Below, in pieces: positions 3,255 to 32,336 of a DNA stretch of 64,000 nt. Both the position numbers and the translations under genes were made by a program. Within the stretch, counting starts at the first letter, position 1. Every line of letters begins with the position of its first letter. This stretch comes from a virus. The stretch lies in the IMG/VR virus record IMGVR_UViG_3300031555_001876. One strand, written 5' to 3'. The notes under the pieces are model-generated. The model saw only the letters and a list, made by a program, of their open reading frames with translations. It made no database searches and was not told the DNA's origin.

Positions 3255-3282
3255 TCCACCTAATAGAAAGGAGTAAAGAATT

Positions 3283-4248
3283 ATGGCTATTGATTTATTG
3301 GCTATTCAGCCTCATAAGGTTTCTCGTGATTTAAGCGGCTATATTACTTTTGTATATGGCGCTTATAAGACTGGTAAGACCACTCTAGCAACTCAAATGG
3401 GTAAATCTCTGTTGCTTGCTTTTGAGCAGGGCTATAATACATTACCCGGAGTTTATGCACAACCAATTGCAAGTTGGGCTGAAATGAAGCAAGTTTATCG
3501 TGAATTAAAAAAGCCCGAAGTAAAAGCAGCATATAATGTTGTTGTTGTTGATGGTGTTGATATTGCTGCTGACCAGTGTACAAAATATATTTGTAACCAA
3601 AATAGCATTGAATCTCTTGGTGATTTAGCATATGGTAAAGGTTGGGCTAAATTTAAGACTGAATTTAATGAAGTATTCCGTGGATTAACTCAAATGGGTT
3701 ATGCTGTATTCTTCATTGGTCACGATAAGGAAGGTAAAGATGATAATGGTAATATTACCAATATTCGTCCTTTGCTTTCCAATAGTACAAGAGAAGTTAT
3801 TGCAGGTATGGCTGATATCTATGCTTATGCAAAACAATATAATAAGGCTGAAAATTCTGTTTTAGTTTTGCGCGACCCCACAGGTTTTATTGATTGCGGT
3901 TGCCGTTTTAAGTATGTACCTGAAATTATTCCTTGTAATTATGAAGCCTTAACTGAAGCAATTCTTAATGCTATTGATAAGGAAGCCGCAGAGCACGGTA
4001 ATAAATTTGTTACATCTGAACGTATGGCTGTAATTGAAGAAAAAACTTATGATTATGATTCTTTAATGAGTGAATTCCAGACATTGGTTGAGCGGTTAAT
4101 GACTGCTAATCAATCTAATGCTATTAAGATTACTTCAGTTGTCGAGAAGTATCTTGGTAAGGGTAAAAAGGTTGGCGATACAACCCCCGAACAAGCAGAA
4201 TTTATTCATTTAATTAATACTGAAATCAAAGAAGATTTGTTAAGTTAA
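3283..4248 (+). CDS. RecA-like P-loop ATPase (Sak4-like recombination/annealing ATPase)
   Basis: Walker A GAYKTGKTT and Walker B VVVVDGVD are present. Size and context are typical of phage Sak4-family proteins. Confidence 0.5.
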   Translation: MAIDLLAIQPHKVSRDLSGYITFVYGAYKTGKTTLATQMGKSLLLAFEQGYNTLPGVYAQPIASWAEMKQVYRELKKPEVKAAYNVVVVDGVDIAADQCTKYICNQNSIESLGDLAYGKGWAKFKTEFNEVFRGLTQMGYAVFFIGHDKEGKDDNGNITNIRPLLSNSTREVIAGMADIYAYAKQYNKAENSVLVLRDPTGFIDCGCRFKYVPEIIPCNYEALTEAILNAIDKEAAEHGNKFVTSERMAVIEEKTYDYDSLMSEFQTLVERLMTANQSNAIKITSVVEKYLGKGKKVGDTTPEQAEFIHLINTEIKEDLLS

Positions 4249-7800: not shown

Positions 7801-8572
7801 TTAAATCTTTCTTATCAAAAATTAGCAGATAAATATGGTATTTCTAAATCAACAATTGCTGATATAATTAATTATAGAACTTGGAAAGATGTCTAAAAAC
7901 CTGTATCGACTATTCCCTAGGTCTTATGGGCGGGGAAGTAGGGCTACTATTGATACGTAGTCGCATTTTAGGAAACGAAGTGCGTTAAATGCCGAAAAGG
8001 TGTCCTATGATAAATTATCATAGTAAGAGATAGTCAGCGCCTATGGAAACATAGGAGAACGTAGCCACGACTATATACATACTAGTATAAAAATTCTAGA
8101 AGAAATTACTCGCAAGAGTGGTGGAGTTAAATTGCGTGAAGATAATATTCTATTTATGTTATCTACTCGTTTAAAAGATATCTGTAATCAATATGGCGTA
8201 TTTATTATGTCAGCAACGCAGTTAAATGGTGATTATAAAGATAGTGAAACTCCTGACCAAAACTTATTGCGTGGTGCGAAGTCTATTGCTGATAAAATCG
8301 ATTATGGTGCAATTTTATTATCAGTAGTTGATGATGATTTAGTAAAATTAGAGAGTATTCTTGCTACTGGTCAATTTACTACACCAAATATTAAAATGTC
8401 TATTTATAAAAACCGTCGAGGCAGATATAAAGGAGTTTATTTATGGTGTAAGGCAGATTTAGGAACCTGCCGCATTAAACCTATGTTTTGTACAGATTAT
8501 CGATATGAATTACAAAGTATCGATGATATAAGAGTAAGATTTGAAGAAGAGTCAGCGTTTGAAGATGTATAA
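4877..8572 (+). CDS. DnaB-like replicative helicase, split gene: exon 1 ~4877..7038 (containing intein 5564..6676), group I intron ~7039..8064, exon 2 8065..8572
   Basis: The Walker A SAATGVGK|T is interrupted by the intein. Exon 2 reads ..DYIHTSIKILEEITRKSGG..LSTRLKDICNQYGVFIMSATQLN.. and matches the DnaB H2-H4 region. The unspliced read-through ends with the junk tail NPKRVLG*. The exon junction is uncertain by about 25 nt. Confidence 0.6.
5564..6676 (+). mobile_element. intein (371 aa) with a LAGLIDADG homing endonuclease domain, inserted in the helicase P-loop
   Basis: The insertion lies between GVGK and T of the Walker A motif. Two LAGLIDADG motifs are present (YVMGALLGDGSF, LLQGLMDTDGSV). 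The C-terminus ends ..THN followed by +1 Thr. Residue 1 is Ala, not Cys/Ser, and block F reads MTCFTVDNDNHLF. Confidence 0.6.
7039..8064 (+). mobile_element. group I intron A in the helicase gene, carrying GIY-YIG HEG 7219..7896
   Basis: The 5' part contains GCTAACGGGGAA..AATCCCGTGGGA (pairing CGGGG/CCCGT). The 3' part contains the S-like element AGATAGTCAG, a P9 hairpin CCTATGGAAACATAGG and a terminal G. These elements recur in introns B and C. The 5' splice site is uncertain; candidates are 7020, 7038 and 7043. Confidence 0.55.
7219..7896 (+). CDS. GIY-YIG homing endonuclease (intron A ORF); 4 in-frame TAGs
   Basis: Sequence MGIIYCFTNKINNKKYIG(TAG)TINPK(TAG)RYNAH..YGFENFDYEIL is present. 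A TAG sits at the Gln of the YIGQT motif. The C-terminus is HTH-like. Track ORF 7351..7569 is one fragment of this gene. Confidence 0.6.
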
Positions 8573-10279: not shown

Positions 10280-12991
10280 ATGAAATATCAATTAATCAAT
10301 AAAGTATTTCCACCTGGATTGTCTGCGGTTGAAAAGGTCTTTTACAATCGTGGAATTAAACCAGAAAATTTAGACCATTATTTAAATACAACAGATAACG
10401 ACATTCTTGACCCATAGACTATCGCAAGAATAGATAGTGGTGTTAAAATGTTGATATCACATATCTCACAAGGTGACAAAGTTCTTATTTAGGTAGATAG
10501 CGATTGTGATGGCTATACTTCTGCGGCTACACTTATTAACTACTTAAATTGTCTCTTCCCCGGCTTTGTGTAGAATAATATATCATATCGTATCCATATG
10601 GGGAAGGAACACGGCATTTTACCAGACACAATTCCAGATGGAGTAAAATTAGTAATTGCTCCTGATTCAAGTAGCAATGATTATGAACAACATAAAATCC
10701 TAAATAAGTCTGGTATTGACGTGTTAGTAATAGACCATCACGAAGCCGAGAAAATATCTGATTATGCTTGCGTTATCAACAATCAATTATGCGATTATCC
10801 TACCAAGTCATTAAGTGGCGTTGGTATGGTATATAAGTTCTGTCAAAGAATTGATTAGTGGATGGGTTGTGATTACGCAAACCTCTTTTTAGATTTAGTC
10901 GCACTCGGTATGGTGGCAGATATGATGGACTTGCGCGATTATGAGACACGGCATTTAGTTGACCGCGGCTTAAAAAATATCCGCAATCCTTATTTCAAAG
11001 AAATGGTACAACGTCAAGCATTTCCTTTGCGGAATGGTATCACTCCTTTTGGAATAGCATTTTATATTGCTCCTTTCGTTAATGCTACTGTGCGAAGTGG
11101 AACGCAAGATGAAAAGGTCATATTATTCGAGTCTATGCTTGATTATCGGGGATATGAACGAATCCCATCAACTAAACGTGGATGTAAGGGTCAAACAGAG
11201 ACTCGGGTAGAACAGGCTTGTCGTAATTGTATAAACATTAAAAACAGGCAAACCGATACAAGAGACAAAAGTCTGGATGTAATTAAACGGATAATTGAAG
11301 AACAAAAATTGCTAGATAATAAGATATTAGTCATACTATTAAAAGAACAATATGCGACTGATAAAAACCTAACTGGTTTAATTGCTAATGAATTAGCAAA
11401 TAAACTACAAAGACCCACCCTTATCTTAAATGAAAAAGAAGATACTTGGGAAGGTTCAGCAAGAGGATACGATAAATCAGAATTAAAAGATTTTAAACAG
11501 TTCTTAACCAATAGTGGCTATTTTGAATATACTGAGGGTTAGTGGAATGGCCCTAAAACCTTTTTTCCGTGTGTCGCGGAGGTCATTTTTATTAAAATGG
11601 CTAACGGGGAATTCTAAATATAATAGAGATATTATACATGAAAATCCCGTGGGAAGATTTTCGTTATATCTCCTAAATGAAAAAATAAAGGAGATTAATT
11701 ATAATGGAAAAATATATTTATAAAATAGAAAATTTAATAAATCATAAAATTTATATTGGACAAACTAATAATTATAAAAGACGTTTTATAGAACATAAAA
11801 ATAGAGGGTATAAAAAAGATACCAAAGTTTTATATTATGCTTTTGATAAATATGGAATTGAAAATTTTGATTTTTCTATTATTGAATTTGTTAAAAATTA
11901 CAATGAACGTGAGAAATATTGGATAAAATATTATGATAGTTTTGAAAATGGTTATAATATGACAGAAGGCGGAGAAGAACCTCCTGTTTTCCATGGAGAA
12001 AATCATCATTTAGCAACTCATACTCAAATAGATAATGATTATATTGTTTATTTATTAAAAGAAACCAATATTTCTATAAAAGATATTGCTAAATTAACTA
12101 ATTATAATACTTCTTCTATTAATAGAATTAATAAAGGAGAAATGTGGCATCAAGATAATTTAGAATATCCTATAAGAAAAAAAGGAACATTATTAGAAAA
12201 GCAAGAAAGAATTAAAAAGATACAATATGATTTATTAAATACTACTTTAACCCAAAAAGAAATTGGAGAAAAATATGGAGTTGGAAGAACTACTATTACC
12301 GCAATTAATAGAGGTCAAAATGGCTATAATCCAACTTTAAATTATCCATTACGAAAATAACCTGTATCGACTATCCCAAGTGAGATTGGGAGTAGGGCTA
12401 CTATTGACACGTAGTTCGAAATGGGGTTCTGCGCGCACTCGTTCATCTAGTTAGTTGAATGATGCAAGCGCAGTAAAAGATAGTCAGGCCTTATGGAAAC
12501 ATAAAGGATTACCGCACGCCAATGCATTCGGCGCAGGAATTAAAAAAGATAAAGTTGATGATTTTATCAAATATTCAAACTCTTATTTAGCAAATTTGGA
12601 CTTCTCCCCTTGTTATAATGTAGATTTGTTATTTACAGGGAATGATTTAAATAATAAAGATATTCTTGATTTAGCAAATCTAAAATCTATATGGGGCCAA
12701 GGAGTAGAGGAACCTTTGATTGCGATAGAACATTTAAATATTCACGGCGGAAATGTTCAATTAATGTCGCGAGATAAGAACCCTACTTTGAAGATAACCT
12801 TACCAAATGGTATGAGTTTAATCAAATTCAGGTCGTCCGAAGAAGAATATAAAAAATTATATTCTGAAACGGGTTGTGTAAGTATTAACATTATTGGAAA
12901 ACCAGAACAGAACGTTTGGAATGGTATTATCAGTCCGCAAATTATTATTGAGGATTACGAAATTATAAGTCAAACAAAATACTATTTCTAA
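10280..12991 (+). CDS. RecJ-like DHH-family exonuclease, split gene: exon 1 10280..11539, group I intron 11540..12514, exon 2 12515..12991; 4 in-frame TAGs in exon 1
   Basis: Motifs DSDCDGYTSAA (DxDxDG), VIDHHE (DHH) and, across the exon junction, EG|HANAFGAG (RecJ GGHxxAAG motif) are present. Exon 1 ends in U. The intron ends in G. Confidence 0.6.
11540..12514 (+). mobile_element. group I intron B in the RecJ-like gene, carrying GIY-YIG HEG 11704..12360
   Basis: The 5' splice site follows GGU 11537-39. The conserved elements GCTAACGGGGAA..AATCCCGTGGGA, AAGATAGTCAGG and P9 CCTTATGGAAACATAAAGG are present. The terminal G is at 12514. Splicing restores the RecJ motif. Confidence 0.6.
11704..12360 (+). 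CDS. GIY-YIG homing endonuclease (intron B ORF); no TAG codons
   Basis: Sequence KIYIGQTNNYKRRFIEHKN..YGIENFDFSIIE is present. Gln in the motif is encoded by CAA. The C-terminal region has HTH repeats. Confidence 0.7.
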   Translation: MEKYIYKIENLINHKIYIGQTNNYKRRFIEHKNRGYKKDTKVLYYAFDKYGIENFDFSIIEFVKNYNEREKYWIKYYDSFENGYNMTEGGEEPPVFHGENHHLATHTQIDNDYIVYLLKETNISIKDIAKLTNYNTSSINRINKGEMWHQDNLEYPIRKKGTLLEKQERIKKIQYDLLNTTLTQKEIGEKYGVGRTTITAINRGQNGYNPTLNYPLRK

Positions 12992-13042: not shown

Positions 13043-13816
13043 ATGAAAAAATTATTTTTAGTATTGTTTAGTATTATTATCTTATTGAATTGTACAGTTT
13101 TTGCATCCGCTACTACAGTTCAAATGTTAAAAACCAATGTCATTTATCTGAAAGATTTATCTACTGATGAATTAAAAAGATTAGCAGAAGAACAAAAAGA
13201 ATTAAAAGAAAAAATCCATTTAGAAGCAGAATTATTAAGAGAAAGAGGATATGATGAAAATTCACCCTCAATTAGTCTGTTAAAAGAACAATGGAAAAAC
13301 GCAAATGATAAAGAACAAATTTATTATGAAAATTGGTATAATAAATTTTTTGGAAATGACTCTGATTGGACTAAAGAAATAGAAGAATATCCAGTAGCAA
13401 CTTATGTATGGCGCTATATGAAAGGTTTAGGATATAGTGACGCGGTCGCCGCAGGTATCTTGGGTAATATGATGCTTGAATGCGGTGGCGGCACCCTTAA
13501 ATTAAAATGGGATATTTATAATGATACTAAAACATTCTATGGTGTTTGTCAATGGAGTAAAACTTATCATTCCGATGTATATGGAGTAAGTTTAGAATCG
13601 CAGATGAATTATTTGCGCGATACCATTAAAGAGCAAATTGATAAATATGGCTTTGCTTATGGAGGCAATGGTTTTGATTATGAAGACTTCTTAAAATTAG
13701 AAGACGCTGATGAAGCCGCTTTATGTTTCGCTAGAGCATATGAAAGACCTAACGAAGCCCATATTCCTGTGCGAGCATATTTTGCACAAAATGCTTACAA
13801 TTATTTTGTTAAGTAA
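13043..13816 (+). CDS. secreted protein with a lysozyme-like C-terminal domain (phage tail-lysozyme-like)
   Basis: An N-terminal signal peptide MKKLFLVLFSIIILLNCTVFASA is present. The segment AAGILGNMMLECGG resembles the catalytic region of phage tail lysozyme or lytic transglycosylase families. Confidence 0.35.
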   Translation: MKKLFLVLFSIIILLNCTVFASATTVQMLKTNVIYLKDLSTDELKRLAEEQKELKEKIHLEAELLRERGYDENSPSISLLKEQWKNANDKEQIYYENWYNKFFGNDSDWTKEIEEYPVATYVWRYMKGLGYSDAVAAGILGNMMLECGGGTLKLKWDIYNDTKTFYGVCQWSKTYHSDVYGVSLESQMNYLRDTIKEQIDKYGFAYGGNGFDYEDFLKLEDADEAALCFARAYERPNEAHIPVRAYFAQNAYNYFVK

Positions 13817-15876: not shown

Positions 15877-18800
15877 ATGTATTTTAATTGTCATAATCAT
15901 ACAATGTATTCGAATCTTCGATTACTTGACTGTATTAATCAACCAAAAGATTTAATTGATAAAGCAATTGAATTAGGTCTTTCTGGAATTGCTATTACTG
16001 ACCACGAATGTTTGTCAGCGCATATGGAAGTAAATCAATATGCTAAAAAACTTTTAGTAACTAATCCTGATTTTACTATTGCATTAGGTAATGAAATTTA
16101 TTTAACTGATGATAGAGAATCAGGACAAAAGTATTATCACTTTATTTTAATCGCAAAAGACGCTTTAGGGCATAAAGCATTAAGAGAATTAAGTTCTATT
16201 GCTTGGTATAATTCTTATGTTGATAGACGTATGGAAAGAGTTCCAACAACAAAAGAAGAACTTGCCGAAGTTGTTCTTAAATATAAAGGACATTTAATTG
16301 CGACAACTGCTTGTATTGGCGGTGAATTAGGCACCAATATTCTTTATATGCTTGATTGTGATAGAGTTGGTGATACTATTAATAGAATGACTTATCATAA
16401 TAATATTATTGAATTTATTCAATATTGTAAAAATCTATTTGATGATGATTTCTATATTGAATGCGCTCCTTCAAGCACGGCAGACCAAATCGCAGTTAAT
16501 AAAATGCTATTAAAAATTGCCTCTGTTTTTGATGTTAAATTAGTTCCTGGAACTGACTCTCATTATTTAACTGCAAAAGAAAGACCAATTCATAAAGCAT
16601 ATCTTAATTCAAAAAATGGTGAAAGAGAAGTTGATGATTTTTATGAATTTTCTCATTTGATGGATTCTAATGAATTATATAATTTATTAAAATTATCATA
16701 TGAACAGTCTGTTATTAATGAAATCATATCTAATTCATTAGAACTTCAAAAGAAAATTACTTTTTACTCTCTTGAACGCAAACAAATTATTCCAAAAGTA
16801 GAAGTTTTAGATTATCAAAAAACCTTATCTCATTTTGGTATTAATAATAATTTGCGAGATGAATTAGATAATAGTTGGCCTACTATTAAAAGTCTTTTAT
16901 TATCCGATGATATCCAAGAACGGTATTGGATTAATGAATGTTTAAATGGATTAATTGATAAGGATTTGTGGAAATATGAGTATATTTCAAGAATAGAAAC
17001 AGAAGCAGACATTATAAAATATATTGGTTCTGGTCTAAATGATTGCCTTTTTGCTTATTTTAATACCTTTAAACATTATATTGATTTATTTTGGGAGTGC
17101 GGTAGTATTGTAGGACCAGGGCGAGGAAGTGCTACCGGTTTTTTATCAAATTATTTACTTGGTATTACGCAACTTGACCCCATCCGTTGGAATCTCCCTT
17201 GGTGGCGTTTTCTGAATCGGGAGAGATTAGAACTACCGGATATCGATATAGACCTTGCACCATCCAAGCGCCCTTCTATATTCAACGCCATTCGCGAAGA
17301 GCGTGGTGAGTTTGGTCTCATTCAAGTAGCCACCTTCGGAACAGAAGGAACAAAATCAGCAGTCTTAACTGCTTGCCGTGGTTATAGAAGTGAAGATTAT
17401 CCAGATGGTATCGACGTAGACCAAGCGCAATATATGTCCTCTTTAATTCCGCAAGAACGTGGTTTCTTATGGGATATTAAAGATGTTGTATATGGTAATC
17501 CAGAGAAAGACCGCAAACCTGTTACGACTTTTATTAGAGAAGTAAATAGATTTCCAGGTTTATTAGATATTATTATGTCTATTGCAGGTCTTGTAAATAA
17601 GCGCTCTTCTCACGCTTCTGGTGTTATTTTATATGGCGAAGACCCATATGATACAGCGGCTTTTATGAGAACTCCTAGTGGTGATTTAATTACTTGCTAT
17701 GACCTACATAAAGCAGAAGCCGCAGGAGATACTAAATATGATTTCCTAGTAACAGAAGTTTCAGATAAAATTATTAAATGTATTGAATTACTTATTGAAG
17801 ATGGAGTTATTAAACAAGACAGTTTAAGAAATACTTATAATAGTATTCTTCATCCAGAAGTATTAGATACAACTGATAAAAAGATTTGGGAACATCTTGC
17901 CGCAGGTGATGTTCTTGATGTATTCCAGTTTAGTGGTGGTGTCGGTTTAGCAATTGCTAAAAAACTAAAACCGCAAGACCCTCTAGAAATGACTGCGGCG
18001 AATGCTATGATGAGACTGATGAGTGAAAAAGGCGTTGAATCACAGCAAGATAGATATGCTAGAATTCAACGAGAAGGTATTCATATTTTTGATTGGGAAA
18101 TGAAACAAAAAGGTTTACCAGAAAATATGATTGCTAAATTACATAAACATTGTGATAAGTATTTTGGTTGTTGTCCTATCCAAGAGCAGATGATGGAAAT
18201 ACTTATGGATGTTGCTGGATTTACTCTTGGAGAAGCAAACTCTGCTCGAAAGATTGTTGCTAAAAAGCAAATGGATAAAATTCCACAATTAAAAGAACAG
18301 GTATTTAGTAGATTTGATAATCATAATATTGCTGATTATTTTTGGAAATTAGCAGTAGCACCGCAATTAGGGTAAATGGCTTGCCCTTACACACCTAACC
18401 TGTTATCGCAGGGGTAAATTAATAACCCTTTTTGGGGCTAAACTTATTAATTTGCTAACGGGGAAAGTTAAGTATTAATGAAAGAATCATTAATATATAC
18501 CAATCCCGTGATAAATGTCTTAATGGTCCTTTAATACATCTTAAAGGAGAAATGAAATGGTATTTTATATTTATAAATATACTAATTTAATTAATAATAA
18601 AAAATATGTTGGTTAGACTAATAATTTTCAAAGAAGAGTCAACGAACATAAAAGTTGTTCTTTTAATCCCAATAGTGTAAATTATGATGATAAAATTCAT
18701 CAAGCAATTCGTAAATATGGATATAGCAACTTTAAAATTGAAATTCTTGAAATTATAACAGAGGCTAAAACATATGATTTAGTGAATGAACGTGAAAGTT

Positions 18801-20876
18801 ATTGGATTAAAGAAGAGCAAAGTTTATTGACTCAATGGGGATATAATGTTTTAGAAGGTGGAAATAATAGTTGGAGGTCTTTTTTAACACAAGAAGATGT
18901 TGAAAAGATAAAAATGATGATTAAAGATGAAATACCTTATTCAAAAATACAAGAATATTATCCCATATCTAAAACTTTTATTTCAGGCATCAATTCTGGA
19001 AAATATTTTTATAATGAAAAAGAAATATATCCTTTATGCAGATATCGAATTTCTAATGATATCTATGATGCTTTAATTGAAGATTTAATAAAACCTGAAC
19101 TGACTTTTAAAGAACTAGCACAACGATATAATTTAGGAGAATCAACTATTAAAAAATTTAATTATGGCACATTACAAAAAGGATATTATAAAGGTGAATA
19201 TCCTATTAGAAAAATAACTCCACAAAAATATAAAAGACAATTGATAAAAGAATATTTATTAAACACTAATCTCCTATATAAAGATATTGTAAAATTAACT
19301 GGAACGTCTGATGAAACAGTGCGCAGAGTTAATATAGGTGCAATTGATAAAGATGAAAATTTAAAATATCCATTAAGATAAATATTGTAGAGACTATTCT
19401 GGGTGAGACCGGAAGTAGGATTACTATTGATACGTAGTTCGAAATGGTGTGCTATAATTTGTATATTATAGTAAAAGATAGTCCAGTCCTCATAGAAATA
19501 TGAGAATAACTGATGCATTTAGTTTGAATCATTCTCTTCCTTATTCATTTGTTGGTATTCAAACTATTTATTTAGCATATAAATTTAATCCTATTTATTG
19601 GAATACTGCTTGCTTAATTGTTAATAGTGGCGCTACTGATGAAGAAGCAGGCGGTCAAACTGATTATGGTAAAATAGCAAAAGCAATTGGAGATATTAGA
19701 AGTGCGGGTATTAAAGTCAGTCTTGCTAATATTAACCGATCTAAATTTGGTTTCGCTCCTGACGTAGATAAGAATCAAATACTTTTCGGTCTCAAAGGAT
19801 TGCTAAATGTTGGCGATGAAATTGTCCAAAAGACAATTGAAAATAGACCTTATTTTTCTGTAAAAGACTATGTAAATAAAGTTAAACCAGGTAAACAAGC
19901 AATGATTTCCCTTATTAAGGGAGGGGCTTTTGATGAATTAGAACCTGATAGAAAATTTACAATGGCTTGGTATATCTGGGATAATTGTGATAAAAAGAAA
20001 AGAATTACTCTTCAAAATATGCCAGGATTAATCAAATATGATTTAATTCCAAAAGACACAGAAGATAGAATTACTGCTTATCGAGTATATGAATTTAATC
20101 GTTATTTGAAAGCAACTTGTAAATTCACTCCTACTGATTATAAAGTAGATGAACGTGCTTATAACTTTTTGATAAAAATTTCTTGTGATGATATGATTCA
20201 CGGAGATATGTTATTAGGAGTTAAACAATGGGATAAAATTTATCAATCTTATATGGATATCTTCCGTGCGTGGATTAATGAAAATAAAAACCAAATTCTT
20301 AATGATTTAAATAGTAAAATCTTTAAAGAAGATTGGGATAAATATGCGTCCGGCAATATCTCTTCTTGGGAAATGGAAGCATTATGTTTCTATTATCACG
20401 AACACGAATTATCTAATGTAAATAGATGGAAGTATGGATTCGCTGATTTCTTTAAACTTCCAGTAGAACCAGTAATTGCTTCTACGTTTGAGCGCGGAGG
20501 TAAAGATATTAATATTCTTAAATTAGATAAAATTTATGGAACTTGTATTGCGAAGAATAAAAATAAATCGACAGTTACTTTACTAACTCCTACTGGCGTT
20601 GTCGAAGTAAAGTTTAGAAAAGAATATTTTAGTTTGTTTGATAAAAGAATTAGTGAACGTGGAGAAGATGGCGCAAAACATATTGTTGAAAAATCTTGGT
20701 TTGACCGAGGTAGTATGATTGTTGTTATGGGATTCCGTTCTGGTGATAATTTTATTACAAAGAAATATGCGAAAGATTCTGGTCATCAATTATATAAAAT
20801 TGATAAAGTAGAAGAAAATGGCGATTTAATTTTGCGCTCTACAAGATATCAAGGAGAGGAAGAAGAAGATGGCTAA
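15877..20876 (+). CDS. DNA polymerase III alpha-like replicative polymerase (DnaE/PolC family, N-terminal PHP domain), split gene: exon 1 15877..18373, group I intron 18374..19512, exon 2 19513..20876
   Basis: A PHP motif (HNHTMYSNL..ITDHE) is present. Splicing joins ..APQLG-Y-AFSLNHSLPYSFVGIQTIYLAYKF.., which matches the conserved DnaE YAFNKSH..Y.LKAHYP segment. Exon 1 ends in U at 18373. The intron's terminal G is at 19512. Confidence 0.65.
18374..19512 (+). mobile_element. group I intron C in the polymerase gene, carrying GIY-YIG HEG 18557..19381
   Basis: The same conserved core as A and B is present (GCTAACGGGGAA..AATCCCGTG; AAGATAGTCCAG; P9 TCATAGAAATATGA). The exon phase is restored on removal. 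Confidence 0.65.
18557..19381 (+). CDS. GIY-YIG homing endonuclease (intron C ORF); one in-frame TAG
   Basis: Sequence MVFYIYKYTNLINNKKYVG(TAG)TNNFQRRVNEHKS is present. The gene is continuous with track ORF 18782..19381. Confidence 0.65.
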
Positions 20877-23995: not shown

Positions 23996-24932
23996 ATGGC
24001 TTTAATATATAAAATTACAAATAAAATTAATAATCAATCATATATTGGAAAAACGATTCAACCTTTAAAGGTAAGATATCAAGAACATCATCAAGACTGT
24101 GCTAAATATTTAAAAAATCAAAAAACTTCTATTCCATTATATAATGCAGTTAATATTTATGGCTGGGATAATTTCACAATAGAAATTATTGAAGATAATA
24201 TCCCTAATAAGTTAATTAATGAAAAAGAATAGTATTATATAAAATATTTTGATACTTATAATAATGGTTATAATGCTACTCTAGGTGGAGATGGTGGAAG
24301 AACTTGTTCAAAATTAAATGAAAGTACAGTCCAATTAATTATTCAAATATTATTAGATGAAAATAATTTAAATTCATTAGAACAAATTGCAAAATAGTTT
24401 AATATTAGTACTACAATTATATCTTCTATAAATCAAGGGAAAGCCTGGTATAATGAAACATTAAATTATCCATTAAGAAAATATAATGTAACAGGATTAA
24501 GCATTAATAAATAGACATATAATAAAATTATTAATGATATAAAGAATACAAATTTATCTTTAAATAGTATTTCTAAAAAATATAACTTAACAGAAAATTA
24601 GATATGTGCAATAAATAATGGATACGAATGTTATAATGGAAAACATCCATATTATACTCCTATTTACGAAGGGCCTTTTCCAATTAGAAGTACAAATAAA
24701 AAAATTGATATAACTAATAATATTCAAAATATATTATATGATATTATTTTTACAAAAGAATCTATGTCTAAAATTGGAGCAAAATATAATCTGCAAGGAA
24801 ATACTTTAACATACATAGCCAATGGGAAAAGAAGAAAAGAACTAACTAAAGATTTTATAACTCCATTACGACATAATATAGAAATAAATAAAAAAATTTA
24901 TAAAAAAATATATTCAATTAAAGAAGGTGATT
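23996..24932 (+). CDS. free-standing GIY-YIG homing endonuclease between nrdD and nrdG; 4 in-frame TAGs
   Basis: Sequence MALIYKITNKINNQSYIGKT..YGWDNFTIEII is present, with C-terminal HTH-like repeats. The gene has its own promoter-like TATATAAT and an RBS. Confidence 0.55.
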
Positions 24933-24934
24933 AA

Positions 24935-28078: not shown

Positions 28079-28125
28079 AAAAAATAGGGAAAGTGAATTA
28101 ATTCACTTTCCCTATTTTTTATTTT
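28078..28125. terminator. bidirectional terminator between the plus early block and the leftward minus block
   Basis: A-run, then stem TAGGGAAAGTGAATT / AATTCACTTTCCCTA, then T-run. Confidence 0.6.
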
Positions 28126-28438
28126 AACAACCTTTTATATCACAAAAAGTTTGATTAGTAATATCAATAATTTCTTGACCGTAAGTTGCAATTAAATCTG
28201 CTACTATTTCTTCGAAATATATATCCATAAGAATACCATAACTAAACATTGCCGCGTGTACTAATTCGTGACATAAAACTTTTTTAAACATTTCTCTATC
28301 TAATGATTCATAAATATAAATAGTTTTATCAATATCATCACAACATCCAATAGTAACAGAACCATCACTTCGAATTAACGTTGGATGATTGGTAGAAACC
28401 AGGATAATTTGCCAATATTCACCATTAATAACAAACAT
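28124..28438 (-). CDS. small zinc metallopeptidase (ImmA/IrrE-like HExxH)
   Basis: Motif VLCHELVHAAMF is present. Confidence 0.4.
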   Translation of the reverse strand: MFVINGEYWQIILVSTNHPTLIRSDGSVTIGCCDDIDKTIYIYESLDREMFKKVLCHELVHAAMFSYGILMDIYFEEIVADLIATYGQEIIDITNQTFCDIKGC

Positions 28439-29025
28439 TATTTAACCTAACCGATTTTAGATGCTAAAGCCGAAACTCGTTTTTCAAGATATTGTCTTTC
28501 TTCTGGTGAAGCATCTTCAATCATTTCTACCATATCCTGTGTTAATTCTTGCATATATTTTTCTAATTCTTTAATTTGAGATGCTTTATCTCGATGCATC
28601 TCTTTTGATTCCATATAAGTTTTTCTTGTCTAATGACTGCGGCCTTCGCGTGGGTCACGCATCATCATATCATATTCAGTATAAGAACGATTACTGCCGC
28701 CATTTGAAGAACTACTACGACCACTTTGTCCAGAAGAAGAAGAGGATGAAGAGGAAGGAGTATAATACATTCTACCCTTTTCTCTGTCCATATCTCTTTC
28801 ATTATACATTGGTTGAGTATAGTAATGATACTCCTTTTCTTTCTCTTTTCCTTTTTCTTTCATCGCTTCAGTAATAGTGCAATAATACATTGCTTCTTCT
28901 AAATCTTTCAACATATCAATTGCTTCTCCAAGTTCTTTAGCATCAACATCTTTTAAATTACCCATTTGACTTTGAACGCAAGCCATTAAGGACTATTTCA
29001 TCATTTCATATTGACTCATACACAT
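28438..29025 (-). CDS. Ser-rich hypothetical protein with C-terminal coiled coil; 2 in-frame TAGs
   Basis: RBS GGAGGA precedes ATG 29025. The gene extends track ORF 28630..28986 in both directions. TAA 28438-40 overlaps the next ATG. Confidence 0.4.
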
Positions 29026-29039
29026 ATTAATCCTCCTTT

Positions 29040-29462
29040 TTATGCCACACGTTCAACAATCAAATTGGCATTCTGAACATTGATTGGTTGAGTACTTACA
29101 TTTCTTACACTAACGCTCATACAGCAATTGCGCGGAACATCAATAAATATAGCGCTAAATACATTAAAAAATTCTTCAACGGCTGCAGGAGTAACTATCA
29201 TAGTAGTTGTTCCAATTGCCTCTCCTTCAATAGCAATTGCTAAAGAGATTGCTTCAACGGTACCACCAGTAGGAATTGAAATATTGCCGCCGAAACTCAC
29301 TTTAAAGCGAGCCCGACTTTGGCAATTAGTAATTCCTCTTAAAGTAATAAGACCACTACCATCACGATGGACTATGGAGCAATTCCCGCAAGTTACAGTA
29401 TCAGTAAATTGAACATTCTGATTCACAGGGACAACCTGTAATACATTAGCAGTTATTTCCAT
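29040..29462 (-). CDS. hypothetical protein resembling spore-coat/exosporium small proteins
   Basis: 140 aa with Cys pairs (CGNC, NCC). The similarity call is from memory of Firmicute spore-surface proteins and is weak. Confidence 0.3.
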   Translation of the reverse strand: MEITANVLQVVPVNQNVQFTDTVTCGNCSIVHRDGSGLITLRGITNCQSRARFKVSFGGNISIPTGGTVEAISLAIAIEGEAIGTTTMIVTPAAVEEFFNVFSAIFIDVPRNCCMSVSVRNVSTQPINVQNANLIVERVA

Positions 29463-29496
29463 TTATTTTCCCTCCAATATAGTGTTTTATTACTTA

Positions 29497-30273
29497 TTAA
29501 CCAAAATAGTTACTTCCTTCGCAGCATCCGCTACTTCTAAAACCATAACCATAAGGACTATAGCAGCAGTTAGGATTTGGTACAAAGTACGCAGGAATTG
29601 GGCAAGGATCACTTAATTTACTTACCAAATAGGCGTTCTGGGCTTGCTGGGAAGCAGCAAATTTTAGTGACTGATTCTCGGCCTGTAAAGCAGAAATTCT
29701 ATCTTGTGTTAAGAAATCTAAAATAGAACGAACACCTGCATTCTGATTATCAATAATATCACGAGTAGAATCGCTAATAACGTGGCGAGTATCACAAGAC
29801 TGAGTTGCTAAATTATAATTGGTATCAGAGAAGCCACGTTCAATGGCTCTTTGAGTTCCACAGCAACAGTCGCTTATTTGATGAGATAAACTATTCATTG
29901 CCTGCGCTTCTTGGTAGCCTAAAGTACAAATAGCATTATCAATTCCGTGGAAACCACTCATTAAAGCATTATTTAATGCATAAGTACTATCTGCTAAACC
30001 ATAAGTCTGCTGGTCTAATTTAGAAATTAAAGTCTGCTGGTCAACAGCAGCACGCACATCTTCTTGAGTGGCAGGGAGTCCATAACGCATTCCACCACCA
30101 CCACCAAAACCACTACCGCCGAAGCCCCATCCGCCGGCAAATAAGAATAATAAAATTATCCACCAACCATTGTCGCCAAATAATCCATCACCATTTCTAC
30201 TGGAGCCACTGGTGACAGCGGCAATGTCGGCTAAACTATACATACTATTTCCAAACATTTTCATTTCCTCCAA
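29497..30273 (-). CDS. Gly/Cys-rich membrane protein
   Basis: A TM segment is followed by a GGWGFGGSGFGGGGG tract. The C-terminus PNPNCCYSPYGYGFRSSGCCEGSNYFG is Cys-rich. Confidence 0.35.
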   Translation of the reverse strand: MEEMKMFGNSMYSLADIAAVTSGSSRNGDGLFGDNGWWIILLFLFAGGWGFGGSGFGGGGGMRYGLPATQEDVRAAVDQQTLISKLDQQTYGLADSTYALNNALMSGFHGIDNAICTLGYQEAQAMNSLSHQISDCCCGTQRAIERGFSDTNYNLATQSCDTRHVISDSTRDIIDNQNAGVRSILDFLTQDRISALQAENQSLKFAASQQAQNAYLVSKLSDPCPIPAYFVPNPNCCYSPYGYGFRSSGCCEGSNYFG

Positions 30274-30285
30274 TTAATTTAAAAA

Positions 30286-30531
30286 TTATTTAAAACCATA
30301 TTGGGCTTTAAATTTTGCAAATTCTGTATCGAAATCTAATCCTCTTTGAGCAACTAAATTTCGAGCAATTTTTTCAATCTCACTCGTTTGTCCAGTCCGT
30401 GCGAGATTTAGGAGATTTTCTCCCATTGGGGTTCCTTTCATTTGATTTTCTAATACACTCATTACTAACTGTTGTGGATTATATCCTTGCTTAATCATCC
30501 CAATCAACTAATTGGGGTCTACGTAGAACAT
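30286..30531 (-). CDS. hypothetical protein; one in-frame TAG
   Basis: RBS AAAGGAGG precedes ATG 30531. The gene extends track ORF 30286..30507. Confidence 0.35.
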
Positions 30532-30591
30532 TGGAAGATACCTCCTTTAAAATTAAAATTTAAAAACTGGTTGCGATTGCTGTGCCGCAGG

Positions 30592-30944
30592 CTATGACAT
30601 TTCTAATAATTTACCCTCATATGTTTTTATTAATTGATTAATTACTTCTTCAAATTCTTCACGGGTAACATAAGAAGAGTCATTAGACTGGTCAGCAGGT
30701 TTAATTTGGCTTAATTCGTATAAATTTATACAAACCGTGCCATCCATATTTATAGATTTAGTATAAATTTTTTTATTTGCTACATCTGGAAAATAAAACA
30801 CTGAACCATCAAAATCAATAGGAGAGGCTTTCACTTCTTCAATAGAAGAAACAGGCCTAACCTATGATATTACTTGAGGATTTATGTTCCAGTTTGTATA
30901 TGGCTACTATCTATAATTAGGAATAAATTGCTATTGCTGATAGG
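30592..30944 (-). CDS. hypothetical protein; 4 in-frame TAGs
   Basis: RBS AAAGGAGG precedes ATG 30944. The gene extends track ORF 30592..30834. Confidence 0.35.
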
Positions 30945-31035
30945 GGTAATTCATAAATAGGCGCCTCCTTTACATTTTCATTTTCCTTACCTCTTCATTA
31001 CTATATAATTTTTAAGTCAAATAAATAAATAAAAG

Positions 31036-31138
31036 AAACTCACACATTTTTTGATAAATTTTTCGTTGCTGCGTTTTTAATTAAATTTTTCAAACTCACA
31101 ATTTTAATTGAAAAAATTTTTCTCACAATTTTAGTTGA
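31036..31138. promoter_or_regulatory. three imperfect direct repeats AAACTCACA(A/C)ATTTT(A/T)(A/G)TTGA, candidate LytTR-regulator binding sites
   Basis: Copies lie at 31036-31056, 31091-31111 and 31121-31138. Repeats 2 and 3 are 27 bp apart, and repeat 3 abuts the -35. They sit in the divergent intergenic region between leftward operon 30944<- and the LytTR gene. Confidence 0.45.
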
Positions 31139-31164
31139 TTTTTTCACAAAAATATGTTATAATA
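31135..31164 (+). promoter_or_regulatory. promoter of the LytTR regulator gene (TTGATT-N18-TGTTATAAT)
   Basis: -35 at 31135-40 overlaps direct repeat 3. The extended -10 is at 31156-64. Confidence 0.45.
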
Positions 31165-31199
31165 TAATAAAATAATAAATAAATAAAAAGGAGAAATCA

Positions 31200-31904
31200 A
31201 TGTTATCGATTGCTATTTACAGTGACAATTTAAATGACGCACGACTTCTTCAATCAAAAATTTAGGATTTTCTTGTAGAGAATAAAATTTTAGCAAAAAC
31301 TAAAGTATTTGATACAATGGAAAAATTTATTACAGTACCTGATACTTTCGATATTTATTTTATGGATATGGACTCAAAAGATGATGTATTAAGCATTGGA
31401 AGCCAAATGATAGATATTGACCAACAAAGTTATTTTGTATATTGGAGCAGTGATAAAGCATCTGCATATGATGTAACAAAAATTCGTGCAAATTACTTCT
31501 TATTAAAACCCATAGAACCTGGAGACTTGGAAGGTATTATGAATAGTATCAAGAAAAGAATTAAAAAAGATACTGTTATAATAAAAACTCCAGAAGGAGA
31601 TAGAAGAGTATACACCAATGATTTAAATTATGTTAATATTGTAAAAAGGTGTACGTGTTATCATTTAGTAGACGGTGCAGTATTTGATGGATAGACACTG
31701 CGCGGCGCATTTGAAAAAGAAATATATCCATTACAAGAACATCCTAAATTAGCATTTATTCCACCAAGTTTATTAGTTAATATGACAAATATTAAAATAT
31801 TAAACAAAGAAAGTGCAACTTTTGACAATGATGATGTTATATATTTGCCAAAGAAAGCATATGATATCATAAAAAACAAATGGTTTTTATATAACCAAAT
31901 ATAA
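31200..31904 (+). CDS. LytTR-family transcriptional regulator (receiver-like N-domain plus LytTR DNA-binding domain); 2 in-frame TAGs
   Basis: The C-terminal segment VYTNDLNYVNIVKRCTCYHLVDGAVFDG(TAG)TLRGAFEKEIYPL..FIPPSLLVNMTNIKIL fits the LytTR domain. It is preceded by promoter 31135-31164 and three direct repeats. Confidence 0.6.
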
Positions 31905-31955
31905 AAAAAATAAGGCTCGTATCAATTAAGATACGAGCCTTATTTTTTATTTTTT
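31904..31955. terminator. bidirectional terminator between the LytTR gene and the end of the late operon
   Basis: A8, then stem AAGGCTCGTATC / GATACGAGCCTT, then T-rich. Confidence 0.6.
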
Positions 31956-32336
31956 ATTAAGATTTACACTTGCTTCAATTTTTTTACTTATATAAGTATC
32001 TAAATCTCCAACTACTGTTGCTAAATATTCTTTAGCATCATCTGTTAGAATTAACATAACCGCGTCGGCTGACTTTTTAAAAGCCTCTTTTTGCGCTTCA
32101 ATAGTAAATTCGCCTTTACTTTTTAAACTTTCAACATAAGTTTGATTTGTAGCAATAACGCAATCAGTAATTGTCTTTTCTAATAATGTCATATACTTAT
32201 CATATTGAGCATTATTAGTTTTTTCTTTTACTTCTTTCATATGAGTATTTAACCATTTAATAAAATAAGTAGTTAAAACTCCTAACAGAGGTATAATACA
32301 TACTTCAAAAATTTGAGCAATTAATCCAATTTCCAT
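31947..32336 (-). CDS. small membrane protein, holin-like (last gene of the late operon)
   Basis: 129 aa with one N-terminal TM helix. A strong RBS AGGAGGAATAATAT is present. The gene ends at TAA just before a bidirectional terminator. The holin call is positional. Confidence 0.3.
   Translation of the reverse strand: MEIGLIAQIFEVCIIPLLGVLTTYFIKWLNTHMKEVKEKTNNAQYDKYMTLLEKTITDCVIATNQTYVESLKSKGEFTIEAQKEAFKKSADAVMLILTDDAKEYLATVVGDLDTYISKKIEASVNLNKK

What the first reader, a model, noticed from the sequence alone, without database searches (positions are those of the whole stretch)
31036..31904. Phage-encoded LytTR-family regulator flanked by three direct repeats in a divergent intergenic region between structural operons
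ORF 31200..31904 has a receiver-like N-terminus and a C-terminal domain matching the LytTR fold pattern (..VYTNDLNYVNIVKRCTCYHLVDG..FIPPSLLVNMTNIKIL). Upstream are three ~19-bp direct repeats AAACTCACAATTTTARTTGA. Two are spaced 27 bp apart and one abuts the -35 of its own promoter, an arrangement typical of AgrA/ComE-type sites. The gene sits alone on the plus strand between leftward operon 30944<- and the end of the late operon, bracketed by a terminator. This suggests a phage-borne quorum/peptide-responsive or autoregulatory switch controlling late or accessory genes.
Basis: partly seen in the sequence, partly recalled or inferred. Interest (0 to 1): 0.7.

Follow-up and report, generated by a model that had tools for sequence, protein, structure and literature searches.

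The report
Phage LytTR regulator with phased repeats
A gut phage that reads the TAG stop codon as glutamine carries its own two-domain (receiver plus LytTR) transcription factor next to a conserved, evenly spaced row of probable binding sites between two back-to-back promoters, which most likely forms a local switch for a small accessory operon rather than a proven quorum-sensing device.

Summary
ORF 31200-31904 has two in-frame TAG codons. It is open only because the whole window reads TAG as Gln: both TAGs fall on near-invariant Gln columns. Pfam and NCBIfam give no hit, but an AlphaFold model (pLDDT 90) matches full-length ComE and the AgrA LytTR domain. A family profile also reaches proteins carrying Pfam Response_reg plus LytTR. 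So this is a divergent receiver-LytTR protein, found almost only on phage or metagenomic contigs.

The repeats are real and more extensive than reported: four strong CTCACAAnTTTT copies and one degenerate copy. A matrix built only from 13 related loci places its four best hits in the 64 kb exactly here. In relatives the copies sit at fixed offsets 27-29 nt apart, in 4-6 units. They run from a near-consensus promoter of the regulator gene to a leftward promoter with no conserved -35.

Most likely the protein binds this array, activates the leftward six-gene operon and autoregulates. No kinase or peptide gene was found, and the receiver's Mg-binding acidic pair is degenerate. The spacing is not AgrA/ComE-like. 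DNA binding was not tested. I rate it a new variant of a known kind, of moderate interest.

The parts
31200..31904 (+). Gene for a 234-aa receiver-LytTR regulator, read with TAG = Gln (in-frame TAG at 31263-31265 and 31692-31694; stop codon TAA)
   Evidence: sequence and translation. (TAGs fall on near-invariant Gln22 and Gln165). (109 full-length homologues). (fold).
31200..31565 (+). Receiver (CheY-like) domain, residues about 1-122. Candidate phospho-acceptor D56, with S83 and K103-P104; the acidic pair is reduced to S8-D9.
   Evidence: profile against PDB sequences: LytR-type receiver 6m8o, 1.3e-8. (44 of 48 homologues match Response_reg at E<=1). (five strand-helix units). (residue counts).
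31572..31895 (+). LytTR-fold DNA-binding domain, residues about 125-232. Carries the family-specific invariant motif KRCxCYH and has PPS where related LytTR regulators are variable.
   Evidence: AgrA LytTR domains 4g4k, 4xqj and 3bs1, TM 0.78-0.82, rmsd 2.2-2.5. (profile reaches proteins with Pfam LytTR above threshold). (invariant residues).
31135..31163 (+). Rightward promoter PR of the regulator gene: -35 TTGATT (31135-31140), 17-nt spacer, extended -10 TGtTATAAT (31155-31163)
   Evidence: Conserved in 13 of 14 loci by the search pattern, with a variant in the 14th, L007. Same promoter class as four + strand promoters in the replication module.
31189..31193 (+). Ribosome-binding site AGGAG, 6 nt before the ATG
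   Evidence: Sequence.
31037..31054 (+). Repeat copy 1 (distal), AACTCACACATTTTTTGA. Offset -93/-95 from the PR -35. Its core lies 31 nt from the -10 of the leftward promoter.
   Evidence: score 15.3. (phasing). (fixed 31-nt distance in at least 11 loci).
31066..31083 (+). Repeat copy 2, degenerate in this phage (TTGCTGCGTTTTTAATTA), at offset -66
   Evidence: the same offset carries a good copy (for example CCTACACATTTTTT) in L002, L004, L012 and L021.
31093..31110 (+). Repeat copy 3, AACTCACAATTTTAATTG, at offset -39
   Evidence: score 15.8.
31120..31137 (+). Repeat copy 4, TTCTCACAATTTTAGTTG, at offset -12. Its 3' end overlaps the -35 hexamer.
   Evidence: score 14.8.
31141..31158 (+). Repeat copy 5, TTTTCACAAAAATATGTT, inside the PR spacer at offset +9, 21 nt from copy 4
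   Evidence: score 14.8. One search shows the A-rich part belongs to the promoter class, while the TCAC is specific to this promoter.
30996..31008 (-). Leftward promoter PL: conserved extended -10 box TTATATAGTAATG (TATAGT = 31005-31000). No conserved -35.
28124..30954 (-). Leftward six-gene operon, the probable target. Products are 133 aa, 81 aa, 255 aa (membrane-spanning, Gly- and Cys-rich), 140 aa (BclA/ExsF-like jelly roll), 195 aa (Ser-rich) and 104 aa (HExxH metallopeptidase-like).
   Evidence: Synteny with the regulator gene is conserved in all loci with flanks, including the 29%-identical relative L008.
31905..31948 (.). Bidirectional intrinsic terminator shared by the regulator gene and the convergent holin gene
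   Evidence: (-27.1 kcal/mol, z = -9.95). (only a sub-threshold Thr_leader match, reflecting the hairpin plus T-run).
31947..32336 (-). Holin gene, last gene of the leftward late operon, convergent with the regulator gene
   Evidence: PHROG 13712, holin, E 1.5e-29.

Best explanation
The gene encodes a phage-specific, divergent two-domain transcription factor: a CheY-like receiver followed by a LytTR DNA-binding domain. It is translated only because this phage decodes TAG as glutamine.

I infer that the protein binds, probably cooperatively as a multimer, to the phased array of CTCACAAnTTTT repeats that fills the 245-bp divergent intergenic region.

The distal copy sits at about -44 to -59 of the leftward promoter PL. 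PL has a conserved -10 but no conserved -35, so the regulator is probably its activator. It would switch on a conserved six-gene accessory operon that includes a BclA/ExsF-like jelly-roll protein, a Cys-rich membrane protein and a small metallopeptidase-like protein.

The proximal copies overlap the -35 and the spacer of the regulator's own strong promoter PR. That promoter needs no activator, so these copies more likely mediate negative autoregulation.

The input signal is unknown. The receiver keeps the phospho-acceptor Asp but has lost the conserved acidic pair, and no kinase is encoded nearby. I therefore favour a phosphorylation-independent (atypical) receiver whose activity is set mainly by its own synthesis.

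What is shown and what is inferred:
- Shown: the recoding, the fold and homology, the conserved array and its phasing, both promoters, the synteny.
- Inferred: that this protein binds the array, the direction of regulation, and the lack of phosphorylation.
For: Recoding.

Fold and homology:
- The AlphaFold model has pLDDT 90.4 and pTM 0.79.
- The best solved-structure match is full-length ComE (E 3e-12). AgrA LytTR domains align with TM about 0.8.
- The family profile finds 12,908 relatives. Sampled distant ones carry Pfam Response_reg plus LytTR above threshold.

The array:
- A matrix built from the 13 other loci gives its four best window-wide scores (14.8-15.8; next best 13.3) inside 31037-31158, all on the + strand.
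- In 14 loci the copies sit at offsets +9, -12, -39, -66, -93, -122 and -149 from the conserved -35.
- The array differs between phages by whole 27-29-nt units, with 4, 5 or 6 units.
- A relative whose regulator is only 29% identical keeps the same motif and array.

Leftward promoter PL: the core GTGAGTT lies exactly 31 nt from TATA(G/A)T in at least 11 loci, although the intervening sequence varies.

Co-inheritance: the regulator gene always sits between the holin gene and this operon.

Receiver residues: D56 in 46/48, K103 in 43/48, P104 in 48/48. Position 8 is Ser in 36/48, and position 9 is Asp in only 26/48. More distant relatives that carry the Pfam LytTR domain have CDD or CED at these positions.

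No kinase: none in the window's other proteins or in the flanks of relatives.
Against: - No experiment or covariation ties this protein to the repeats. The motif does not change even where the protein has diverged to 29% identity, so co-evolution cannot be used as evidence.
- The 27-nt period is unlike the roughly 21-nt spacing documented for ComE.
- Only 64 kb of a genome of about 185 kb was seen, so other targets, a kinase or a suppressor tRNA may lie elsewhere.
- The window protein itself has D9, D56, S83 and K103, so phosphorylation by a host kinase is not excluded.
- The direction of regulation (activation of PL, repression of PR) rests only on promoter quality and site position.
Confidence: 0.6

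Rival explanations
1. Signal-responsive two-component or quorum reading. The receiver is phosphorylated at D56 by a host histidine kinase, for example an Agr-type kinase of a Clostridia host, or by a kinase elsewhere in the phage genome. The phage thereby eavesdrops on a host peptide or density signal to time the accessory operon.
For: - D56, S83 and K103-P104 are retained, and the window protein also has D9.
- The closest solved relatives are phosphorylation-dependent quorum regulators, ComE and AgrA.
- A divergent promoter region filled with LytTR-type sites recalls agr P2/P3 (PMC4227749).
- Phages carrying agr components are on record (PMC11945551).
Against: - No kinase, AgrB/D-like gene or peptide ORF lies in the window or in the 10-kb flanks of five relatives.
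- The acidic pair needed for Mg-dependent phosphotransfer is Ser plus a variable residue in the family: only 26/48 have Asp at position 9 and 7/48 at position 8. More distant relatives keep DD or ED.
- PR has an optimal 17-nt spacer and an extended -10, unlike AgrA-dependent promoters.
Confidence: 0.2
2. The repeat array is not the regulator's operator. It could serve another protein or a structural role (binding sites of a host or other phage factor, phased A/T-tract architecture of the divergent promoters, or iteron-like elements). The regulator would then act on targets in the unseen part of the genome or on host genes.
For: - Binding was not tested.
- The motif is unchanged between regulators that are only 29% identical. 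That fits recognition by a more conserved factor as well as it fits conserved DNA-contact residues.
- The 27-nt phasing is atypical for LytTR proteins.
- The A-rich spacer part of copy 5 is shared with other promoters of the same class.
Against: - The array is found only next to this gene in the 64 kb, and it is co-inherited with the gene in every locus examined.
- Autoregulatory sites beside the regulator gene are the rule for LytTR regulators.
- The most conserved residues of the C-terminal domain are basic or polar (R135, R136, N143, N146, K149, R150, R168, K173, N194, K199), as expected for a conserved DNA-contact surface.
Confidence: 0.17
3. The gene is a decaying pseudogene, interrupted by two stop codons, or an annotation artefact.
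For: Two in-frame TAGs in the standard code. No Pfam or NCBIfam hit.
Against: - Both TAGs lie on near-invariant Gln positions.
- TAG-as-sense restores very long ORFs throughout the window.
- There are 109 full-length homologues with conserved synteny, promoter and ribosome-binding site.
- TAG positions differ between homologues, and three of 16 have none.
- The structure model is confident.
Confidence: 0.02

Closest known systems
ComE of Streptococcus pneumoniae (receiver-LytTR response regulator; PDB 4cbv)
   Same: Same two-domain architecture and length (about 240 aa). It is the best full-length structural match (E 3e-12). It binds direct repeats upstream of promoters, including that of its own operon.
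   Different: - About 15% sequence identity.
- ComE has a complete phospho-acceptor pocket and a cognate kinase (ComD) and peptide gene (comC) in the same operon.
- Its sites are two 9-bp repeats separated by a 12-mer (PMC4005675).
- Here there are 4-6 copies with a 27-29-nt period, no kinase or peptide gene nearby, and a degenerate acidic pair.
AgrA of Staphylococcus aureus and the agr P2/P3 divergent promoter region
   Same: - LytTR fold (TM about 0.8 to 4g4k, 4xqj and 3bs1).
- A divergent intergenic region carrying regulator sites for two back-to-back promoters, one of which drives the regulator's own transcript.
- AgrA also has functionally important Cys residues in its LytTR domain (PMC4227749).
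   Different: - AgrA-dependent promoters have suboptimal 18- or 20-nt spacers and need activation. PR here is near-consensus with an extended -10.
- AgrA uses two pairs of repeats, not a continuous phased array.
- AgrA is chromosomal and belongs to a four-gene quorum circuit.
Phage-encoded LytTR and response-regulator proteins already in databases: 'Response regulator [Siphoviridae sp. ctiV651]' A0A8S5S4H7; LytTR-only proteins of Pseudomonas phage PMBT3 and Brevibacillus phage Davies
   Same: Phage-borne. The first is a full-length receiver-LytTR protein and a structural match at E 6e-16. A review notes LytTR proteins in Pseudomonas phages as possible AgrA analogues (PMC11945551).
   Different: None of these has, to my knowledge, a described operator or function. 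This family is not recognised by the Pfam LytTR model. It belongs to TAG-recoded phages with contigs of about 150-190 kb and comes with a defined, conserved candidate operator array.
TAG-to-Gln recoded gut phages (genetic code 15), in particular the Phassvirus group
   Same: - In-frame TAG at conserved Gln positions.
- TAG-poor core replication genes and TAG-rich structural genes, the pattern reported in bioRxiv 10.1101/2021.08.26.457843.
- The major-capsid-like protein is 50.6% identical to that of phage Phass-1 (PMC10607447).
- A tape-measure-sized ORF of 2878 aa.
   Different: - Relatives of this window have contigs of about 180-190 kb, against 136 kb for Phass-1.
- tblastn found no homologue of the regulator in Phass-1 at E<=1e-5.
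- No suppressor tRNA lies in this 64-kb window.

Membership tests
LytTR DNA-binding domain (Pfam PF04397) | Match to the Pfam LytTR profile at or above the gathering score | tested here: not met
   No Pfam family at E<=1 for the window protein. None of 48 homologues matches LytTR at E<=1.
LytTR DNA-binding domain (Pfam PF04397) | All-beta LytTR fold superposable on AgrA, ComE and 3d6w | tested here: met
   Model pLDDT 90.4. 4g4k_B TM 0.80, rmsd 2.5; 4xqj_D TM 0.82; 3bs1 TM 0.78; 3d6w TM 0.68; full-length ComE E 3e-12.
LytTR DNA-binding domain (Pfam PF04397) | Sequence homology traceable to bona fide members | tested here: met
   The family profile finds full-length relatives at E 1e-27 to 1e-50. 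Of ten sampled, five (P0163, P0177, P0190, P0240, P0259) score above the LytTR gathering threshold, four more score just below it, and one shows Response_reg only. Alignment.
LytTR DNA-binding domain (Pfam PF04397) | Binds paired 9-bp direct repeats separated by about 12-13 bp | tested here: inconclusive
   Direct repeats with a conserved core of about 9-14 nt are present beside the gene, but with a 27-29-nt period. Only copies 4 and 5 are 21 nt apart. Binding itself cannot be tested with these tools.
Response-regulator receiver domain (Pfam PF00072) | Profile match and (beta-alpha)5 fold | tested here: met
   The window protein alone gives no Pfam hit. However, 44 of 48 homologues match at E<=1 (best 6.9e-9), and the family profile hits receiver structures (6m8o 1.3e-8). 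The model has five strand-helix units and TM 0.75-0.85 to receiver domains.
Response-regulator receiver domain (Pfam PF00072) | Phospho-acceptor Asp at the end of strand 3, plus conserved Ser/Thr and Lys | tested here: met
   D56 in 46/48; S83 in 34/48 (Gly in 12); K103 in 43/48; P104 in 48/48. D56 aligns with the acceptor Asp of the LytR-type receiver 6m8o.
Response-regulator receiver domain (Pfam PF00072) | Acidic pair after strand 1 that binds Mg2+ for phosphotransfer | tested here: not met
   Position 8 is Ser 36/48 and Asp 7/48. Position 9 is Asp 26/48 and Asn 11/48, with other residues in the rest. More distant relatives that carry the Pfam LytTR domain have CDD or CED here. The window protein has S8-D9.
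Two-component or Agr/Com-type quorum circuit | Cognate histidine kinase and signal-peptide or processing genes encoded with the regulator | tested here: not met
   No HisKA, HATPase_c or Agr-type family among 41 other window proteins at E<=1e-5, nor among the precomputed Pfam hits of genes within 10 kb in five relatives. No credible small ORF in the intergenic region. The rest of the roughly 185-kb genome and the host could not be examined.
Two-component or Agr/Com-type quorum circuit | Activator-dependent autoregulated promoter (poor -35 or suboptimal spacer) | tested here: not met
   PR is TTGATT-17 nt-TGtTATAAT, conserved in all loci. It belongs to the same class as four promoters in the replication module. 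The divergent PL does lack a conserved -35.
TAG-to-Gln recoded phage (genetic code 15) | In-frame TAG at positions that are Gln in homologues, with genome-wide ORF restoration when TAG is read as sense | tested here: met
TAG-to-Gln recoded phage (genetic code 15) | Phage-encoded suppressor tRNA (anticodon CUA) | tested here: not met
   ARAGORN finds no tRNA in the 64-kb window. The remainder of the genome is not available. Some recoded phages lack such tRNAs (PMC10607447).

The most novel reading that the evidence does not exclude
The regulator could be a checkpoint that couples the phage's switch of genetic code to transcription.

Its mRNA comes from an early-class, host-type promoter. Full-length protein can appear only once TAG is decoded as Gln, because codon 22 would otherwise end translation after 21 residues.

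The finished protein would then polymerise on a 27-nt phased operator that spans both promoters. It would turn on a conserved operon of exosporium-like proteins (BclA/ExsF fold, Cys-rich) and shut off its own promoter.

On this reading a degenerate, kinase-less receiver-LytTR protein acts as a translational-state sensor rather than a phosphorelay endpoint.
Probability: 0.1. Interest if true: 0.8.

Novelty: new variant of a known kind. Interest (0 to 1): 0.45.

Why it matters
Regulatory circuits of large, uncultivated, stop-codon-recoded gut phages are essentially unknown. Here a regulator gene, its probable operator and its probable target operon can all be read from sequence, and they are conserved across many metagenomic relatives. 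That gives a concrete, testable entry point: gel shift or footprint on a 130-bp fragment, and two reporter fusions.

The case also shows that the Pfam and NCBIfam models searched here miss a whole phage-specific branch of receiver-LytTR proteins. Standard-code gene calling would additionally break this gene into fragments.

If the 27-nt phased, variable-copy array is bound by the protein, it would extend the known DNA-recognition geometry of LytTR domains beyond the paired 9+12+9 boxes. The likely target operon (BclA/ExsF-like fold, Cys-rich membrane protein) is itself an uncharacterised and extremely conserved module of these phages.

Tried and rejected
1. Direct Pfam and NCBIfam scans of the protein found nothing. 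PHROGs gave only an unknown-function family, phrog_8810.
2. The family profile against PDB sequences found only receiver domains, no LytTR chain. Sequence-only evidence for the C-terminal domain needed the 1.84-billion-protein profile search plus Pfam scans of intermediates.
I used the 99%-identical P0001 instead.
4. The exact 17-mer, allowing 3 mismatches, was searched in the window. It matched only the two known copies and was not enriched. A matrix from other loci was needed.
5. Looking for other targets: no further matrix hits above background in 64 kb.
6. The leftward -10 box is not a recurrent late-promoter motif: 14 matches against 10.6 expected.
7. DNA and protein searches of GenBank phages for the locus gave only weak fragments.
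8. A scan of bacterial genomes found one distant relative (27% identity) in a metagenome-assembled genome, with unrelated neighbours. This gives no host clue and no sign of recent capture from a host.
9. Rfam on 28-33 kb gave only a sub-threshold Thr_leader match to the terminator hairpin.
10. A conserved TAG position as a dedicated translational gate was rejected. TAG positions vary, and 3 of 16 homologues have none.
11. The pseudogene reading was rejected (see rivals).
12. Sequence searches of the 140-aa and 255-aa operon proteins against PDB found nothing. Only the fold search identified the 140-aa protein.
Full report
**1. What is in the sequence**

The stretch 31200-31904 on the + strand starts with ATG, preceded by AGGAG, and ends with TAA. 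It contains two in-frame TAG codons, at codon 22 (31263-31265) and codon 165 (31692-31694). A standard-code ORF list therefore shows only fragments.

The window as a whole resolves this. With TAG read as a sense codon, ORFs of at least 100 aa grow from 44.6 to 71.3 kb in total, and ORFs of 2887, 1184, 1077, 1047 and 998 aa appear. Reading TGA as sense does nothing comparable.

The resulting map has four blocks:
- a + strand replication module (1-28 kb);
- a leftward block of six small genes (28124-30954);
- the lone + strand gene;
- a long leftward structural and lysis module (31947-64000).

TAG makes up 0% of Gln codons in the core replication enzymes and 14% across the + strand module. It makes up 19% in the six-gene block, 25% (2 of 8) in the gene of interest and 33% in the late module. 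This is the pattern described for TAG-to-Gln recoded phages (bioRxiv 10.1101/2021.08.26.457843). No tRNA lies in the window.

The major-capsid-like protein is 50.6% identical to that of phage Phass-1. Phass-1 is a TAG-recoded gut siphovirus with a predicted Clostridia host (PMC10607447).

**2. The protein**

With Gln at the two TAGs, the 234-aa product has no Pfam or NCBIfam match at E<=1. Its only family hit is a PHROG of unknown function. It does have 109 full-length homologues of 234-242 aa. All are metagenomic, and several lie on contigs of 150-190 kb.

In an alignment of 48 of them, both TAG positions fall on Gln columns conserved in at least 90% of sequences. In the 76%-identical homologue L001, codon 165 is an ordinary Gln codon while codon 22 is again TAG. 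Across 16 loci the number and position of TAGs vary from 0 to 5, and three loci have none. TAG use here is therefore ordinary recoding, not a conserved gate.

N-terminal half. At family level it is a receiver domain. 44 of 48 members match Response_reg at E<=1, and the profile hits receiver structures.

C-terminal half. This needed structure. An AlphaFold model of the 99%-identical P0001 has pLDDT 90.4 and pTM 0.79. It shows five strand-helix units followed by an all-beta domain.
- Foldseek against solved structures ranks full-length ComE first (E 3e-12).
- It aligns the C-terminal domain with AgrA LytTR structures at TM about 0.8 and rmsd 2.2-2.5.
- Independently, the family profile finds 12,908 relatives among 1.84 billion representatives.
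- Ten sampled distant hits include five with Pfam LytTR above the gathering score, most also with Response_reg.

One scan of about 186,000 bacterial and archaeal genomes found a single relative, at 27% identity and with unrelated neighbours. The family looks phage-restricted.

**3. State of the receiver**

- The acceptor-equivalent Asp56 is present in 46/48.
- Lys103-Pro104 is present in 43/48 and 48/48.
- Ser83 is present in 34/48.
- The acidic pair after strand 1 is Ser (36/48) followed by a variable residue (Asp in only 26/48).

More distant relatives that do match the Pfam LytTR model have CDD or CED at the acidic-pair positions.

No histidine kinase or agr-type protein is detectable among 41 other window proteins. 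None appears among genes within 10 kb in five relatives. I therefore favour an atypical, probably phosphorylation-independent receiver. The window protein retains D9, D56, S83 and K103, so phosphorylation by a host kinase is not excluded.

**4. The repeats**

The two near-identical 17-mers, 27 nt apart, are real. On their own they would be modest evidence. The comparative data make them strong.

I anchored the upstream regions of 14 loci on their shared promoter, TTGATT-17 nt-TGnTATAAT. A motif CTCACAAnTTTT recurs at fixed offsets from the -35: +9, -12, -39, -66, -93, -122 and -149. This is a phased array with a 27-29-nt period. Its distal end lies at -93, -122 or -149 in different phages, so whole units have been gained or lost.

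A weight matrix built only from the 13 other loci was scanned over both strands of the 64-kb window. Its four highest scores (14.8-15.8) fall at 31037, 31093, 31120 and 31141. The next best is 13.3, and the total number of hits above threshold equals the shuffle expectation. The motif is thus specific to this intergenic region within the window.

The copy at offset -66 is degenerate in this phage. A relative whose regulator is only 29% identical (L008) keeps the motif, a similar array (-97, -70, -41, -20) and the whole gene cassette.

**5. The two promoters**

PR (31135-31163) is a near-consensus host-type promoter with an extended -10. It belongs to the same class as four promoters in the replication module, at 1879, 4282, 15814 and 25412. 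The TCAC in its spacer is peculiar to it. Copy 4 supplies the TTGA of its -35, and copy 5 lies in its spacer, 21 nt downstream of copy 4.

On the other strand, the leader of the leftward operon shows a conserved box TTATATAGTAATG (30996-31008) followed by a conserved purine-rich stretch. There is no conserved -35. The core of the distal repeat lies exactly 31 nt upstream of TATA(G/A)T in at least 11 loci, although the sequence in between varies. That places the distal site at about -44 to -59 of PL, a typical activator position at a promoter lacking a -35. The -10 box is not a recurring late-promoter motif in the window.

The gene ends at a strong bidirectional terminator (-27.1 kcal/mol, z = -9.95). 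It shares this terminator with the convergent holin gene (PHROG 13712, E 1.5e-29).

**6. The probable target**

The leftward operon is co-inherited with the regulator in every locus with flanks. Its products have no annotated function, with two exceptions.
- The last product is a small HExxH metallopeptidase-like protein.
- The 140-aa product has at least 8,000 homologues at about 80% identity. Its model (pLDDT 79.9) has the BclA C-terminal / ExsFA / BxpB / C1q-TNF jelly-roll fold, TM about 0.7.

A neighbouring 255-aa protein has a membrane segment, Gly-rich stretches and CC/CCC clusters.

**7. Mechanism**

Shown:
- a recoded gene for a divergent receiver-LytTR protein;
- a conserved phased array confined to its divergent promoter region;
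- a strong promoter overlapped by the proximal copies;
- a -35-less promoter at a fixed distance from the distal copy;
- conserved synteny.

Inferred:
- the protein binds the array, probably cooperatively;
- it activates PL and represses or limits PR;
- it acts without phosphorylation.

Because the mRNA needs TAG suppression, the full-length protein should appear only once the cell decodes TAG. This may place the operon in the middle or late programme. However, TAG-free homologues show that such gating is not an obligatory design feature.

**8. Comparison and novelty**

The nearest characterised systems are ComE and AgrA. They share the architecture and fold, and in the case of agr the logic of a divergent, regulator-occupied intergenic region.

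The differences are:
- site geometry: a 27-29-nt multi-copy array here, against two 9-bp boxes with a 12-mer linker (PMC4005675);
- an optimal promoter here rather than a suboptimal one (PMC4227749);
- a degenerate acidic pocket;
- no kinase or peptide genes;
- residence in a recoded phage.

Phage-borne LytTR and receiver-LytTR proteins already exist in databases and are mentioned in a review (PMC11945551). The kind is therefore known. This is a new, well-delimited variant with a readable operator.

I score interest at 0.45. A specialist would find the phased array, the recoding context and the exosporium-like target operon noteworthy. The core claim, a phage LytTR regulator that autoregulates, is unsurprising and remains unproven experimentally.

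Noticed in passing
window 1-64000: The whole window uses TAG as a sense codon (Gln). Core replication enzymes and three capsid-region genes (56737-57852, 61715-62854, 62873-63670) have no TAG. Large tail and structural genes carry up to 52. No tRNA gene lies in the window.
   Followed up: yes
window 84-776, 4877-7045, 7201-7896, 11704-12360, 18557-19381, 23996-24934: The replication module is riddled with selfish elements. Several GIY-YIG homing-endonuclease ORFs are present. One splits the DNA polymerase III alpha gene into 15877-18375 and 19500-20876. The 722-aa helicase-like gene has a LAGLIDADG/Hom_end insert (intein-like). The endonuclease ORFs are TAG-rich, while their host genes have no TAG.
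   Followed up: partly
window 29040-29462 (-): This 140-aa protein of unknown function has at least 8,000 homologues at about 80% identity, far more conserved than the adjacent regulator. Its predicted fold is that of the Bacillus exosporium proteins BclA (C-terminal domain) and ExsFA/BxpB (C1q/TNF jelly roll).
   Followed up: partly
window 29497-30264 (-) and 28438-29025 (-): The neighbouring products are a 255-aa protein with a membrane segment, Gly-rich runs and CC/CCC clusters, and a 195-aa Ser-rich low-complexity protein. Together with the BclA/ExsF-like protein, this looks like a set of spore-surface-like or self-assembling proteins. Function unknown.
   Followed up: no
window 31647-31664 (residues 150-155 of the regulator): The family has the invariant motif R-C-x-C-Y-H (C153, Y154 and H155 in 48/48; C151 in 45/48). 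The model places it on one beta-strand of the LytTR domain, and it is not fully conserved in the more distant relatives aligned. It may be a redox or metal site. AgrA has a redox-active Cys pair in its LytTR domain (PMC4227749).
   Followed up: no
window 30968-30999 (-), leader of the leftward operon: Directly downstream of the leftward -10 box there is a purine-rich element (AATGAAGAGGTAAGGAAAA; consensus GGAAGGGTAAGAGA). It is conserved across loci whose flanking leader sequence varies. Its role is unknown.
   Followed up: no
window 1879, 4282, 15814, 25412 (+): Four promoters in the replication module share the form TTGAYT-17 nt-TGnTATAAT with an A-rich spacer end. This is the same class as the regulator's promoter and is likely the phage's early or middle promoter type, read by the host polymerase.
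   Followed up: partly
protein P0109 (metagenomic, 173 aa): A homologue in which the first roughly 75 residues of the regulator are fused to a thioredoxin-like domain (precomputed PF00085 and PF13098). It may be a recombinant or a truncated variant.
   Followed up: no
window 13043-13816 (+): A 257-aa protein with an N-terminal signal or membrane segment and a Phage_lysozyme2 domain lies in the early-strand module, far from the holin gene at 31947-32336. No endolysin gene was seen beside the holin gene.
   Followed up: no
L008 (IMGVR_UViG_3300045988_122222) 2905-3621: This distant TAG-recoded relative has a regulator that is only 29% identical and keeps more of the receiver acidic pocket (CDND, against SD in the window protein). 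The holin gene, regulator gene and six-gene operon cassette is otherwise the same, and the neighbouring proteins are 37-65% identical. The regulator therefore evolves faster than its neighbours.
   Followed up: partly
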